Source of the DNA: the human T2T-CHM13v2.0 reference genome, Homo sapiens
Length of the DNA: 64,000 nucleotides
Strand: one strand, 5' to 3'
Assembly: GCF_009914755.1 (NCBI RefSeq)
Contig: NC_060925.1
Notes under the pieces: generated by a model
Databases searched by the model: none
What the model was told of the DNA's origin: nothing
What the model saw: the letters and a program-made list of their open reading frames with translations, nothing else
Shown here: piece after piece, positions 44,413 through 56,801 of the stretch
Numbering within the stretch: position 1 is the stretch's first letter
Layout: each line of letters begins with the position of its first letter
Position numbers and translations under genes: made by a program

Positions 44413-44650
44413 TTCCAGGCCTCTGCTTTCTCCCATTCAACTTGATATGCCTCATGCACGTCTTCCTCACAGTCACCTATTCCCCACATCATGGCCATGG
44501 TCAGGCTCATGTCCATGTGTGGGGTGTACTTGACCATGAGGAAGACATAGCAACAACCTACAGTAGCGACCTTCAGCCAACACCCCTGGTGAGACCTGTC
44601 CAGAGACTCAGGCAAAGAACCCCCATGTGACACATTCCTCCCAAACCAAG
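44413..44650 (+). pseudogene. SLC17-like pseudo-exon (exon 2 equivalent: TM1 plus luminal loop)
   Basis: CAG|TT phase-1 start; (V)PGLCFLPFNLICLMHVFLTVTYS, frameshift near 44487, then IMAMV. Compare SLC17A1 VPGFCSFRY, SLC17A2 LALIMHF...IIAMV and sialin RYNLAIL. TAG at 44548-44550. Ends ...QTK|GTACCA. Confidence 0.75.
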
Positions 44651-45858
44651 GTACCACATTCTGCAGAGGCCACCTCAGCCTCTCTCTTCCCTGGGTTCAA
44701 GTTTCTACTCTGACTGGGGTTCTTAGAGCTGCCTGACCTGGAGAGAAATCCCAGTGGATGAAACCTGTTATCAAGAAGGAGGAAATTCCCCTTTAAGTGG
44801 TCCCATTCAGGCAGGCGTCACTTGGGCAACAAATACCAGTTACCATCCAGATAAGTGTTTTCCATGTGTTAGGTCATTGAATGCATAAGATACCTTCATC
44901 TCATTTAATCATTGCGAAAAGCTCTGAAGCGAGTACTATTACTCACCCTATTTTACACATGGGAGGCTGAGGTTCAAAGAGGTGAAGTCACTTGCCTAAG
45001 GTCACACGACTTATTAGTGCTGCAGCAGGGATTTGAACCCAAAGACCAACCACTTAACTACTATTCTAATTGCCTCCTGTAAGCCTCAGTTTCCTTATCT
45101 GTAAAAGGGGAAAATAGTGTCTCTAACCTACTATTAATGTCTCTAACCTCTAACAACCTACTTCACAAGGTTGTTGATTATTAAATTATAAAGTTAAGAT
45201 CTGGTGAAAGGTGAGAAGTTCTCTGGACTCAGACAGACTTGGGCTTTAATCCCAGCTCTGTAACTCACTAACTGGATGATCTTAGTCACATTACTTCCCC
45301 TCCCAGCGTGAATCTCTTCATTGTTGGAATGGGGAAACGTGGTCATACCTATCTGGACGGGTTGTCGGACGGAGTAAATGTGGACATCTATTGGCATGTG
45401 AAGCAGGATTTGGACTGTGGAGGGGAGTGCTACCAGCAGAGGAAAGAGCCCGAGCAAAGGCCTAGAGGTGGCATGTCATGGGGAACATTGCATTGAATGA
45501 GATCCAGCTTGACTCAAATCTCATTTGCTGATGGTTTGACCCCCAGAGGACACCCCCAATCCCTGTGCCTCCCCAAGTCTGGTGAAGATGTTAACTCAGC
45601 TTGTCTCAATCCATCAACAAATATACTGAGAGTGGCATACTGGCAAAGACCTCAGAAAATGAGGGACATGTATTGAAATCCCAGTCCCCCCACTTACCAG
45701 CAGTGTGACTTGGCATGAGTCATTTCACTTCTCTGAGTCTCAGTTTCCCCATCTGAAAATGGGGAGAATATACACAAACTGCAGGGCAACATGGAGTGGG
45801 CTAAATGGGCTAAGGTGGCAACCCTCCCACTGAGGGTCCCAGCCCTCCCATATTGCAA

Positions 45859-46076
45859 GTGCCTTTGAACAGCTGGAGCTCAGACAGGAGAGCCTCCTTC
45901 CTCTTCTGTGCCTTCTATGGCATCCTCATCACCTTGACTGCCATGATTTTGGCTGGAAGCGAGCCCTGGACATAGGGCTTCTGGTATCTTCCTTGCTGTG
46001 CCTTCTGGTGTCCACAGCCGCTGTGCTGGACCCTGGTGACCTTGTCCTGCTGCTGGTCCTGCAGATAGGAGCCCAC
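45859..46076 (+). pseudogene. SLC17-like pseudo-exon (exon 3 equivalent)
   Basis: VPLNSWSSDRRASFLFCAFYGILITLT, frameshift near 45941, then [45 protein letters not shown]. Compare SLC17A2 [78 protein letters not shown]. Length 218 nt = 234 minus a 16-nt deletion. Acceptor reads CAA and the donor is lost. Confidence 0.88.
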
Positions 46077-46212
46077 CTGGAGTGCAGCCCCTGCATCTGT
46101 GCTCAACTAGAAAGGCAAGAACTCGCATTCCAGCTCCCACCTCTAATTTTATGAGGAAGAAGGAGCAACCCTTAATTTTTTTTTTTTTTTTTTTAGTTTT
46201 AAAAACTGGCAT

Positions 46213-53575: not shown

Positions 53576-54067
53576 AACAGATGGGGCATCTTGTCTCGCA
53601 TGGCTGTGGGATATCTGACTGGCCAAGGCAAGGACCCTGTTGAGGGGGTAGGGATGCCAGCTTTGTCCACGGCACTACAGATTCTGTCCCCCCTCCCTGT
53701 GACTCACTTAAATCAGTTTGTTGGGTCAGATAGCTAGCAGCATTCCCTCTCCCTCTTCTAAAGCTGGTCTGAAATGGTTTCTCCAGGCAGAACTTCCCTA
53801 CTCTGCCACAGACCATGCCAACTTGCAGCATTTCTGCTGCTGTTGGATGTAGAGAATCCCAGAATATCAGATTTAAGGCACTGATAGAGCTTCTGGAACC
53901 GTGAACCTCAAATCCTGTCCTTTAACCTGGGGAGCATCACCCCATGCCGTTGGGTGGACTTGCGGCTTCCTCAGAGTGGGGGGTTGAAACTCTTGTAAAC
54001 TGTGCCATAGTCTGGGTGGTAGAGGGAATGAAAGACCTGGGAGTGTGCCTATGTATTGTTCTCTCAC

Positions 54068-55824
54068 TTTTTTTTTTTGAGACTGAGTCTTGCTCTGTTG
54101 CCCAGGCTGGAGTGCAGTGGTACGATTTCAGCTCACTGCAACCTCCACCTCCCAGGTGCAAGCGATTTCTCCTGCCTCACCCTCTCGGGTAGCTGGGATT
54201 ACAGGTGCCTGCCACCATGCCCGGCTAATTTTTGTATTTTTAGTAGAGACAGGGTTTCACCATGTTGGCCAGGCTGGTCTCCAACTCCTGATCTCAAGTG
54301 ATCCACCTGCTTTGGCCTCCCAAAGTGCTGAGATTACAGGCATGAGCCACTCCCCAGCCTCTCCCCTTCTTTTTAACATAGATTCTAGTGTACAAGACAC
54401 ACTATTCCTAACCTTACTTTTTTCCCTTAACTAATTTTGAAAAGTCTTCTTTATTACAGCTGCATAGTATTCCATTGTGTATGAACCAGAATTTCAAAAC
54501 CTATATAGAGAGAAAAGAGAAAAGCTCACGGGTGTTTTTAAATAGAGAAATTGAGAAGCCCTGAATTTTTGTCCAACTTCCTCCTTTTAATAAACAAGCA
54601 GAGGTTCACAGGAGAGAGAACTGTCATTTTTTGAATACTCAATATGTGTCAGGTGTGTTCACATACGTGACCTCAATGTATCCTCTCAATAGCTGCATGA
54701 AAGCTGGGAGTGGTGGTACTTGTAGTCCCAAGTATTCGGGAGGATCGCTTGAGCCCAGGAGTTTTGAGTCCAACCTGGGCCACGTAGCAAGACCTGGCCT
54801 CTTAAGAAAAAAAAACAAAAACAATTTATATTAAATACATATTAGTATTCTCATTTTTGGGAGGAGGAAACTGAGGCTCAGAGGTTAAGCCACTTGCCAA
54901 AGGCCACACAGATGACACAGCTAGTGAATAGCAAAGCTGGAATTTTTTGTTTTTGGTAGAGGTTTTTTAAATATATATATACAAGACACATTAATCCACG
55001 CATTTTTTTTTTTTTGAGATGCAATCTCGCTCTTGTTGCCCAGGCTGGAGTGCAATGGTGCAATCTGGGCTCACTGCAACCTCCGCCTCCCAGGTTCAAG
55101 CAATTCTCCTGCCTCAGCCTTCCAAGTAGCTGGGATTATAGGTGCCCACCACCATGCCTGACTAATTTTTGTATTTTTAGTAGAGACGAGATTTCACCAT
55201 GTTGGCCAGGCTGGTCTCCAGCTCCTGACCTCAGGTGATCTGCCCACCTCGGCCTCCCAAAGTGCTGGGATTACAGGCGTGAGCCACTGCACCCGGCCTT
55301 TTAATCCATTAAATTTGAGGACACAGTACCAAAAAAAACCACTTCAACTAATTCATCTGACAATGCTGTTCATATTCATGACACCATTTTGTTGTTGTTG
55401 TTTTGTTTTCCTAACAGTAAAGAAGGCGGTTTAGGGCTGCTGGGCTGATGTATATTTGGGGTTTCCATCTCTATCTCCCCACCTCACCCATATACCACCA
55501 GGGTCAAAGCTGGAATTTATTTATCTATTTATTTATTTATTTGAGATGAAGTCTTGCTCTGTCACCCAGGCTGGTGTGCAGTGGCACCATCTCGGCTCCC
55601 TGCAACCTCCGCTTCCCAGGTTCAAGTGATTCTCCTGCCTCAGCCTCCTGAGTAGCTGGAATTACAGGTGTATGCTACCATGCCCGGCTAATTTTTGTAT
55701 GTTTAGTAGAGACAGGGTTTCACCATGTTGGCCAGGTTGGTCTCGAATTCCTGACCTCAAATGATCCACCTGCCTCCGCCTCCCAAAGTGCTGGGATTAT
55801 AGGAGTGAGTCACCATGCCTGGCC
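54068..55824. mobile_element. Three antisense Alus and one FLAM-like monomer
   Basis: Alu consensus. Confidence 0.88.
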
Positions 55825-56623
55825 AAAGCTGGAATTTAAACTCAGGTCTGTGGACCTCCATGGCCTACAGACCACGTCCTTAGCCACAGGACTATATTGT
55901 TTTTCAGAAAAGCCAACTGTGCTGAGAGGCATATAGGCGAGGGATTTGGCCAGCATTTTAGAGGGGGAGCTACAAACTTCTAGAGGCAGGGTGTGGTGCT
56001 GGCCGTGGGGATTACAGAGAGGCCAAAAGTGGCTGGGTAAGAATTCAGGTGCGGCTTGTGGACTCCTCAGTCCTGCCTAGAGATCCCTGCAGCCCAACGC
56101 CCCACCTCAGTGCTCCTGAGCCCAATGGGGCTCCTGCGATCAAAGCAGGACTTGTCACTCCAGACCTGTGCTGTCTCCATCATAGACAGAAGCGCCGAGG
56201 CTCCGTCTATGTCCCTGTGCCTAGCAGGCTGGGAGGCAGTACAGCATGGTGGCTGGGAGCCTGGGCTAAGTTTGCAGCCTAGCCTGGCTTTTGCTGGCTG
56301 TGTGCCCTGAATAAGTCACTTCACTTCTCTGAGTCTGTTTCCCCACCTGTAAAATGGAAATGGTAATAAAATTGAACCTCATGTGATGTAGGAGGAATAA
56401 AGGCTAATGTGTGTAAAACACACTGCCTGGCACATGGTGCACACTTGTAAATATTGGTAATAATAGGACTAAGCATTGAACAAATTAGCTTTGGTGCGTT
56501 TGGTATTTGGGTTCCATAAAGGAATCCGCTTTATTACAAAAACACAATCTGAAGCGTCCTGACTTATGTCCCAGAATCTGCATTTATTCCCACTTTCCGC
56601 TCCCATCATCCCTTGCACCCCAG

Positions 56624-56801
56624 CACCAGGCAGCTCCAGGGCGAGAACCGCACTGGCAGCACCTTCTTGAGCCCAGTCCTGGCTGGGTTTCCCATCTGTG
56701 GGACACCCTGGCTTCCTGGAGGCTTGTCTTCCTCCTGTCCTGGGACTTTAATGCTTTTTCCCATGGCCAGCCTTGTACCAGAACTCCAGGCCTGGGCTTG
56801 A
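56624..56801 (+). pseudogene. SLC17-like terminal pseudo-exon (exons 10+11 equivalent, fused)
   Basis: Pyrimidine tract plus CAG|C (phase 2). (S)TRQLQGENRTGSTFLSPVLAGFPIC / DTLASWRLVFLLSWDFNAF / PELQAWA*, with two frameshifts. Compare SLC17A4 RYTGFLKG...[29 protein letters not shown] and SLC17A2 AELQDWA. TGA at 56799-56801. Confidence 0.85.

What the first reader, a model, noticed from the sequence alone, without database searches (positions are those of the whole stretch)
44413..56801. Hidden fossil gene: a lost SLC17-family anion transporter
Seen: five non-repeat islands over 12.4 kb, all on +, translate with frameshifts into hydrophobic segments in the order of an SLC17 protein. Established (from memory): SLC17A5 exons 3, 4 and 9 are 234, 88 and 148 nt; the remnants here are 218 (16-nt deletion), 88 and 147 (1-nt deletion) with matching phases. 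So this is an intron-containing gene relic, not a retrocopy. The nine human SLC17 genes map to chr 6, 11, 12, 19 and 20, none to 1p36. Inference: this is a unitary pseudogene of an additional SLC17 paralogue that may be intact in other vertebrates. The ORF track misses it because every exon is broken. I cannot tell whether it is already annotated.
Basis: partly seen in the sequence, partly recalled or inferred. Interest (0 to 1): 0.95.

Follow-up and report, generated by a model that had tools for sequence, protein, structure and literature searches.

The report
Dead SLC17 transporter gene beside RPL11
Between MDS2 and RPL11 on human chromosome 1 lie the broken exons of a tenth SLC17 anion-transporter gene; it is still intact in marsupials, has close relatives in reptiles and birds, and seems to have been lost early in placental mammals, so it is a real but ordinary kind of gene fossil.

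Summary
Five single-copy islands on the + strand (44413-44589, 45860-~46079, 49047-49134, 51147-51293, ~56702-56801) match exons 2, 3, 4, 9 and 11 of an SLC17 transporter, in order. Their edges fall at the intron positions of human SLC17A3/A4/A5. Each island is broken by a frameshift, a TGG-to-TGA stop or a lost splice site. Exons 1, 5-8 and 10 were not found.

A search of the whole human genome with the opossum protein hits only known SLC17 genes plus this site (E 0.006). Frameshift-tolerant alignments beat shuffled controls by z 6-13.

The relic is not a copy of a living human SLC17 gene: it is 25-31% identical in protein and has no DNA match elsewhere. Its nearest relatives are a marsupial clade filed under SLC17A3/SLC17A4-type names (40-43% overall, 52-56% in exon 9). 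A tree joins the two with 100/98 support. The next nearest are turtle, crocodile and bird genes. No placental orthologue turned up.

A bird-type gene model that fuses this gene to RPL11 matches the human order ID3 - MDS2 - relic - RPL11.

RefSeq does not annotate it. I could not check GENCODE.

The parts
44413..44589 (+). Relic of exon 2 (TM1 region, 'VPGLCFLPFNLICLMHVFLTVTYSPH...'). The acceptor CAG at 44410-12 and the donor GTGAGA at 44590-95 are kept. The frame is lost from about 44490.
   Evidence: Frameshift-tolerant alignment to opossum P0231 residues 51-113. Shuffle z is 6.3 against opossum and 8.3 against wombat. tblastn with P0232 gives E 0.03. The start coincides with the exon 1/2 boundary mapped from the SLC17A3 protein (orangutan P0333) aligned to the human gene. 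DNA was read.
45860..46079 (+). Relic of exon 3 (TM2-TM4). The acceptor AG at 45858-59 is kept. A deletion of about 16 nt near 45937-45947 removes the 'IPGGY' segment and shifts the frame. The donor is lost (GAGTGC).
   Evidence: Aligns to exon 3 of human SLC17A1-A5. HMM E 8e-5. 50-57% identity to bird fragments over 37-38 aa. Shuffle z 10.7. Single copy in the genome.
49047..49134 (+). Relic of exon 4 (88 nt, the 'FPA..LW.KWAPP.ERS' motif). The acceptor AG at 49045-46 is kept. An in-frame TGA at 49077-79 stands where all homologues have Trp. The donor reads GA instead of GT at 49135-36.
   Evidence: tblastn E 6e-5 to 1e-3 (P0104, P0151, P0203). Shuffle z 9.5. Boundaries match residues 198/199 and 227-229 of the opossum protein. 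DNA was read.
51147..51293 (+). Relic of exon 9 (TM9-TM10, 147 nt against 148 in SLC17A5). One base is missing near 51277-51280. The acceptor is lost (CA). The donor GTGGGG at 51294 is kept.
   Evidence: tblastn: opossum 40.5% over 74 aa (E 5e-7), Tasmanian devil 55.8% over 43 aa (E 4e-6), wombat 52.4% over 42 aa. HMM E 2e-4. Genome-wide E 0.006. Shuffle z 13.3. Single copy in the genome.
56702..56801 (+). Relic of the last coding exon (exon 11, TM12, 'DTLASWRLVFLLS...ELQAWA*'). There is one extra base near 56741, no AG acceptor, and a TGA at 56799-801 a few codons before the point where homologues end.
   Evidence: tblastn with P0231 residues 475-494: 60% over 20 aa, linked to the exon-9 hit with a joint E of 5e-7. 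Shuffle z 7.0 against opossum, 6.9 wombat, 5.2 turtle, 5.5 echidna. DNA was read.

Best explanation
This is a unitary pseudogene: the decayed, intron-containing remains of a tenth SLC17 gene of the human lineage, which I call 'SLC17-X' here. The gene encoded a 12-helix major-facilitator organic-anion transporter of the NPT (SLC17A1-4) branch.

Shown: five exon relics lie in the right order, on one strand, at conserved intron positions. Every one carries disabling lesions, and half of the coding exons are missing, so no transporter can be made.

Shown: the nearest intact relatives are marsupial genes, followed by turtle, crocodilian and bird genes. No placental orthologue appears among the proteins found.

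Inferred: the gene sat next to RPL11 in the amniote ancestor and was inactivated on the placental stem, after the split from marsupials. It has drifted neutrally since, losing exons 5-8 by deletion and gaining many Alu insertions in its introns.

Inferred: it has no present function of its own.
For: Homology and significance: (E-values and z-scores are given under 'parts').

Family: the intact relatives match TIGR00894 (eukaryotic Na/Pi-type SLC17) at 1e-131 to 1e-146 and Pfam MFS_1. Their best solved-structure matches are sialin (5e-118) and VGLUT2/3.

Intron-bearing structure: island edges fall at opossum residues 50/51, 119/120, 198/199, 227-229, 394-398, 444 and 474/475. These are the exon boundaries of human SLC17A3/A4/A5. 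The apparent run-on of similarity into neighbouring exons is no better than shuffles.

Not a recent copy: 25-31% protein identity to SLC17A1-A5, against 40-43% to the marsupial clade. There is no DNA-level match elsewhere in the genome.

Phylogeny: the relic joins the four marsupial proteins with ultrafast bootstrap 100 and SH-aLRT 98, using fragments aligned without a guide sequence (quick trees).

Distribution: relatives of opossum P0231 are marsupials at 81-87%, sauropsids at 51-58%, and placental SLC17A1-4 and sialins at only 41-47%.

Synteny: human order is ID3 (-), MDS2, relic (+), RPL11 (+). P0210 is a bird-type member of the clade fused head-to-tail to the RPL11 C-terminus (MFS_1 at 14-296, Ribosomal_L5_C at 354-441).
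Against: - AU tests do not formally reject placing the relic with the sauropsid clade (p 0.11) or with SLC17A1-4 (p 0.09). Only about 200 decayed residues are available, and the relic sits on a very long branch (1.9 changes per site), where placement is least reliable.
- Synteny outside human rests on one merged gene model of unknown species. Gene order in marsupials, monotremes and reptiles could not be inspected.
- Absence of a placental orthologue comes from a capped, word-seeded protein search, not from genome alignments.
- The timing of the loss is inferred, not measured.
- Exons 1, 5-8 and 10 were not found, so 'deletion' of exons 5-8 is an inference from the short 2-kb interval between exons 4 and 9.
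Confidence: 0.85

Rival explanations
1. The relic is a dead, dispersed duplicate of the 6p22 SLC17A1-4 lineage, or of the single sauropsid-type gene, and not the orthologue of the marsupial clade. The grouping with marsupials would then be a long-branch or alignment effect.
For: AU tests leave relic+SLC17A1-4 (p 0.09) and relic+sauropsid clade (p 0.11) unrejected. The relic's branch is very long.
Against: The best tree joins the relic to marsupials at 100/98 with an unguided alignment. Identity is graded: marsupial 40-43%, sauropsid and monotreme 33-37%, SLC17A1-5 25-31%. Exon 9 reaches 52-56% identity only with marsupials. The relic and the marsupial proteins share 'MTL' and 'VNL' in exon 9 where the other clades in the alignment differ.
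Confidence: 0.1
2. It is a recent duplicated pseudogene or a retrocopy of one of the nine living human SLC17 genes.
For: None beyond family resemblance. A global DNA alignment of exon 3 to SLC17A4 gives 72% over 200 aligned positions, against a shuffled maximum of 64%.
Against: Genome-wide DNA searches find no other match for the exon-3 and exon-9 islands. Protein identity to SLC17A1-5 is only 25-31%. The exons are separated by 1.3-5.4 kb at conserved intron positions, with surviving splice signals.
Confidence: 0.02
3. It is chance similarity of hydrophobic translations in non-repeat DNA.
For: Single pieces find nothing in Pfam or among solved structures. Two other exon-3-like spots in the window are indeed chance.
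Against: Five colinear pieces on one strand have z-scores of 6-13. The site is the only non-annotated hit in a 3.1-Gb genome search. The edges fall exactly at known intron positions.
Confidence: 0.01
4. The relic DNA has been taken over for a new role, for example as exons of a long non-coding RNA or as a regulatory element, as has been proposed for other loss relics.
For: A paper proposes that gene-loss relics can seed lncRNAs (PMC10195156; it does not mention this locus). The lncRNA MDS2 lies 5 kb upstream on the same strand.
Against: The RefSeq MDS2 exons (25911-39166) do not overlap the relic. No trace of SLC17 exon 1 is found in or near MDS2. No expression or conservation data were available.
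Confidence: 0.05

Closest known systems
Marsupial genes annotated 'probable small intestine urate exporter' or 'sodium-dependent phosphate transport protein 3-like' (P0231 Monodelphis, P0232 Sarcophilus, P0286 Vombatus, P0288 Petaurus, P0260 Gracilinanus)
   Same: They are the nearest intact relatives: 40-43% identity over about 200-216 relic residues and 52-56% in exon 9. They form one clade with the relic at 100/98.
   Different: They are intact 478-519 aa proteins, while the human locus is broken in every exon and lacks half of them. Their names suggest SLC17A3 or SLC17A4, but marsupials also carry separate SLC17A1-4-type genes (P0307, P0317, P0329), which group with the placental genes.
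Human SLC17A1-A4 (NPT1, NPT3, NPT4, NPT5; urate and organic-anion exporters at 6p22)
   Same: Same branch of the SLC17 family, with the same intron positions.
   Different: Only 25-31% identical to the relic, on a different chromosome, and alive. In the tree they group with monotreme genes, apart from the marsupial clade plus the relic.
SLC17A5 (sialin)
   Same: Exon sizes of 234 and 148 nt for exons 3 and 9 match the relic's pattern. Sialin is the best solved-structure match of the intact relatives.
   Different: Sialin is the outgroup, not the closest relative (28-31% identity).
Sauropsid 'SLC17A4' or 'sodium-dependent phosphate transport protein 3-like' genes (turtles, crocodilians, many birds)
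   Same: 33-37% identical to the relic. One merged gene model joins such a gene to RPL11 in the same order and orientation as in human.
   Different: In the best tree they fall outside all the mammalian genes (94/90). One-to-one orthology with the relic is therefore not shown, though it is not rejected either (AU p 0.14).
Human unitary pseudogenes in general (for example GULOP, UOX)
   Same: A single-copy dead gene at the ancestral position, with intact orthologues in other lineages.
   Different: The loss here seems far older (the whole placental clade). The gene is therefore missing from catalogues built by comparison with mouse, which, from my own knowledge of the mouse gene map, has no Slc17 gene at this position.

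Membership tests
SLC17 family (TIGR00894, MFS anion:cation symporter type) | Significant sequence similarity to SLC17 proteins over several segments, in protein order | tested here: met
   Five colinear segments. It is the only non-annotated genomic hit of an SLC17 protein.
SLC17 family (TIGR00894, MFS anion:cation symporter type) | Family profile match above the curated cut-off for a whole protein | tested here: not met
   The separate pieces find nothing in Pfam. The TIGR00894 genome scan did not score this site (14 of 78 candidates were scored). This is expected for a relic that keeps about 40% of the coding sequence in broken frames. The intact relatives match at 1e-131 to 1e-146, which is also below the strict cut-off.
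Unitary pseudogene | Disabling lesions in the coding sequence | tested here: met
   TGA at 49077-79; frameshifts in exons 2, 3, 9 and 11; four lost splice sites; exons 1, 5-8 and 10 undetectable.
Unitary pseudogene | No functional copy of the same gene elsewhere in the genome | tested here: met
   A genome-wide search with opossum P0231 finds only SLC17A1-A8 exons (at most 62% identity per exon) and this site. DNA of the islands is single copy.
Unitary pseudogene | Intact orthologue at the same genomic position in other species | tested here: inconclusive
   Intact close relatives exist in marsupials. Position is supported only by one bird-type gene model fused to RPL11. Gene order in other vertebrates could not be read with these tools.
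Processed pseudogene (retrocopy) | Exons contiguous, without introns | tested here: not met
   The exons are 1.3-5.4 kb apart, with edges at conserved intron positions and surviving AG/GT signals. The apparent contiguity of exons 8-9-10 was no better than shuffles.
Orthologue of sialin (SLC17A5) | Groups with SLC17A5 in a family tree | tested here: not met
   The relic lies inside the NPT branch, separated from the sialins by a 100/100 branch.

The most novel reading that the evidence does not exclude
The relic marks the ancestral amniote home of the whole NPT (SLC17A1-4) branch. On this reading sauropsids keep one such gene, beside RPL11. In stem mammals it was duplicated, and the daughter gave rise to the 6p22 cluster of urate and organic-anion exporters. 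The parent copy survived in marsupials and died in placentals.

The best tree has this shape: the sauropsid clade lies outside all mammalian genes (94/90), and monotreme genes group with SLC17A1-4 (100/98).

The competing older-paralogue reading is that the two lineages date from the vertebrate genome duplications. From memory, E2F3-ID4 lie near SLC17A1-4 at 6p22 and E2F2-ID3 lie beside the relic, which would fit. This reading is not rejected (AU p 0.14).
Probability: 0.35. Interest if true: 0.55.

Novelty: new member of a known kind. Interest (0 to 1): 0.4.

Why it matters
- It adds a tenth lineage to the history of the human SLC17 family.
- It shows that the marsupial, reptile and bird genes now filed under SLC17A3/SLC17A4-type names are not simple orthologues of those human genes. 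That matters when transport or urate-handling data are carried across species.
- It gives a dated marker, an ancient gene death shared in principle by all placentals, that can be tested in genome alignments.
- It bears on where the renal and intestinal urate-exporter cluster at 6p22 came from.
- It shows that a loss this old, with only about 40% protein identity left, can still be recognised exon by exon.
- No medical or functional consequence for humans is implied.

Tried and rejected
- Single translated pieces against Pfam and against solved structures gave nothing: the pieces are too short and decayed.
- The TIGR00894 scan of the whole genome scored only 14 of 78 candidates, none at this site, so it is uninformative here.
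- Exons 5-8 were sought between 49131 and 51080, and exon 1 between 42000 and 44411 and between 25000 and 44412 (which includes MDS2). None scored better than shuffles (z -1.2 to 0.7).
- Exon 10 was sought just after the exon-9 relic and just before the exon-11 relic. It is not significant, except for a stray z of 4.4 with one SLC17A4 protein at 56560-56700. It is left undecided.
- My first alignments suggested that exons 8-9-10 and 10-11 were contiguous, which would have hinted at intron loss or a processed origin. Tested separately, those extensions are chance.
- Second 'exon-3-like' spots at 59999-60121 and 49621-49695, hit by many fragment queries, are chance (z 0.0 and 1.6).
- Global DNA identity to paralogue exons is close to the shuffled background, except 72% against SLC17A4 exon 3, and is not a useful measure.
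- Literature searches for an SLC17 pseudogene at this locus, for SLC17 losses in eutherians and for SLC17A3/A4 synteny found nothing. Two gene-loss papers do not mention it in their text, and their supplements are not held.
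Full report
**What was checked.** The finding claims five non-repeat islands on the + strand between 44413 and 56801 that translate, with frameshifts, into an SLC17-like protein. The window is T2T-CHM13 chr1:23436001-23500000. RefSeq lists only the lncRNA MDS2 (25911-39166) in it.

**Is it there?** Stop-free translations showed SLC17-like strings at about 45.9 kb and 51.2 kb. 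Single pieces found nothing in Pfam or among solved structures. A search of the human genome with the 51.2-kb piece gave, among three weak hits, exon 9 of SLC17A5 on chr6. Exon translations taken from the human SLC17A1-A5 loci aligned to 45856-46079 (SLC17A2: 46% over 37 aa) and to 51137-51274 (SLC17A5: 33% over 46 aa).

A profile of exon 3 was searched against 1.84 billion proteins and returned 150 family members. An HMM of 24 full-length members was then run against all 3107 stop-free six-frame segments of the window. Its top three hits were the three pieces of the exon-3 and exon-9 islands, all on the + strand and colinear. tblastn added a fourth island at 49044-49145, which carries an in-frame stop.

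**Nearest relatives.** Bird fragments matched best (50-57% in exon 3, about 50% in exon 4). Two word-seeded searches then defined the clade.
- Starting from a goose protein: birds, crocodilians and turtles (named 'sodium-dependent phosphate transport protein 3-like' or 'SLC17A4'), then monotremes and marsupials, then sialins.
- Starting from opossum P0231: marsupials at 81-87%, sauropsids at 51-58%, and placental SLC17A1-4 and sialins at only 41-47%. No placental protein comes closer.

An HMM of this clade gave E 8e-5 for exon 3 and 2e-4 for exon 9, with weaker colinear hits for exons 2, 4 and 11. With the opossum protein, tblastn links exon 9 (40.5% over 74 aa) and exon 11 (60% over 20 aa) at E 5e-7. 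Tasmanian devil and wombat reach 56% and 52% in exon 9. Placental SLC17A1, A3, A4 and sialin give nothing below E 0.05.

In a search of the whole human genome with P0231, all 45 hits fall in SLC17A1-A8 except one, at window 51086-51292 (E 0.006). The exon-3 and exon-9 islands are single copy at DNA level.

**Anatomy.** I wrote a frameshift-tolerant aligner and read the DNA.

| Exon relic | Coordinates | Surviving signals | Lesions |
|---|---|---|---|
| 2 | 44413-44589 | acceptor CAG, donor GTGAGA | frame lost from ~44490 |
| 3 | 45860-~46079 | acceptor AG | ~16-nt deletion that shifts the frame; donor lost |
| 4 | 49047-49134 (88 nt) | acceptor AG | TGA at 49077-79 where all homologues have Trp; donor GT changed to GA |
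| 9 | 51147-51293 (147 nt) | donor GTGGGG | acceptor lost; 1 nt missing near 51277-80 |
| 11 | ~56702-56801 | none | one extra base near 56741; TGA at 56799-801 |

Exon boundaries of human SLC17A3, A4 and A5 were mapped through close orthologues onto the opossum protein. They fall at residues 50/51, 119/120, 198/199, 227-229, 394-398, 444 and 474/475. The island edges coincide with these positions.

Shuffle tests give z 10.7 (exon 3), 9.5 (exon 4), 13.3 (exon 9), 7.0 (exon 11) and 6.3-8.3 (exon 2). Scores fall off from marsupial to sauropsid to SLC17A4/A5 queries.

My first alignments ran on into neighbouring exons without an intron. Tested separately, those extensions are chance. Exons 1, 5-8 and 10 were not found. 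Only 2 kb separate exons 4 and 9, part of it Alu, so a deletion of exons 5-8 is likely but is inferred.

**Phylogeny.** The relic pieces were added to a 32-protein alignment with MAFFT --addfragments, with no guide sequence. In a careful IQ-TREE run (LG+C20), the relic joins the four marsupial proteins at bootstrap 100 and SH-aLRT 98, on a very long branch (1.9). Quick trees, including one guided by the opossum protein, agree.

Identity to the relic:
- marsupial clade: 37-42%
- sauropsid and monotreme proteins: 33-37%
- SLC17A1-5: 25-31%

AU tests do not reject relic+sauropsids (p 0.11) or relic+SLC17A1-4 (p 0.09). The placement is therefore the best estimate, not a proof.

In the same tree the sauropsid clade lies outside all mammalian genes (94/90), and monotreme genes group with SLC17A1-4 (100/98). 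Forcing sauropsid, marsupial and relic sequences into one clade costs 6.9 log-likelihood units (AU p 0.14).

**Synteny.** RPL11 exons lie at chr1:23528712-23530823 (+), about 36 kb beyond the last relic exon. ID3 lies at about 23.3938 Mb (-), roughly 87 kb upstream of relic exon 2. P0210 is a 465-aa protein of unknown species, 79% identical to the goose gene. It carries MFS_1 (14-296) followed by the RPL11 C-terminus (Ribosomal_L5_C, 354-441). This looks like a merged model of two neighbouring genes, in the same order and orientation as in human. It is the only cross-species positional evidence I could obtain.

**What it is.** It is a unitary pseudogene of an additional SLC17 gene of the NPT branch. 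The intact relatives match TIGR00894 and MFS_1, and sialin and VGLUT2/3 among solved structures. The ancestral product was therefore a 12-helix organic-anion transporter. Its substrate is unknown.

An early placental loss is inferred from three things: the absence of a placental orthologue, the amount of decay (about 40% identity to marsupials), and my own knowledge that mouse has no Slc17 gene at this position.

**Known or new.** RefSeq does not annotate it. The SLC17 phylogeny paper (PMC2824716) describes nine human genes in four clades and discusses whether SLC17A1-4 are mammal-specific or were lost in birds, but it does not mention a relic. Other literature searches found nothing. I could not consult GENCODE or genome alignments. 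The kind of object, an ancient unitary pseudogene, is well known; this member appears to be undescribed.

**Verdict.** Interest is moderate.

Noticed in passing
P0210 (protein returned; no window coordinates): A 465-aa database protein fuses a bird-type member of this SLC17 clade to the C-terminal two-thirds of RPL11. It looks like a merged gene model of two neighbours, and I used it as synteny evidence.
   Followed up: yes
window 59999-60121 (+) and 49621-49695 (+): Many SLC17 fragment queries hit these two spots as if they were extra copies of exon 3 ('ILSSFFYCFTWENISGPW', 'WGFFSLLIPGGRL'). Against shuffled controls they are no better than chance (z 0.0 and 1.6).
   Followed up: yes
window 56606-56692 (+): A weak exon-10-like stretch lies directly upstream of the exon-11 relic. 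It is not significant with clade members (z up to 1.4) but gives z 4.4 with one SLC17A4 protein. If real, exons 10 and 11 would be almost contiguous.
   Followed up: partly
protein lists: Among about 40 bird entries of the clade there are waterfowl, ratites, waders, raptors and owls, but no Galliformes and no Passeriformes. This may be a secondary loss in those orders, and it could explain why an earlier study based on chicken concluded that birds lack the gene.
   Followed up: no
tree: Echidna and platypus proteins first taken for members of the marsupial/sauropsid clade group instead with SLC17A1-4 (100/98). Marsupials carry both types. The database names (SLC17A3-like, SLC17A4, urate exporter) do not follow these groups.
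   Followed up: partly
window 46200-48750, 50300-50900, 51500-56000: The introns of the relic are packed with Alu copies on both strands, seen as the typical Alu translations in the ORF lists. They account for much of the spacing between the exon relics.
   Followed up: no
window 49135-49145 (+): The first codons after the exon-4 relic ('KTQ') match the intron read-through of bird gene fragments (P0104, P0151). This may be a conserved start of the intron, or it may be coincidence.
   Followed up: no
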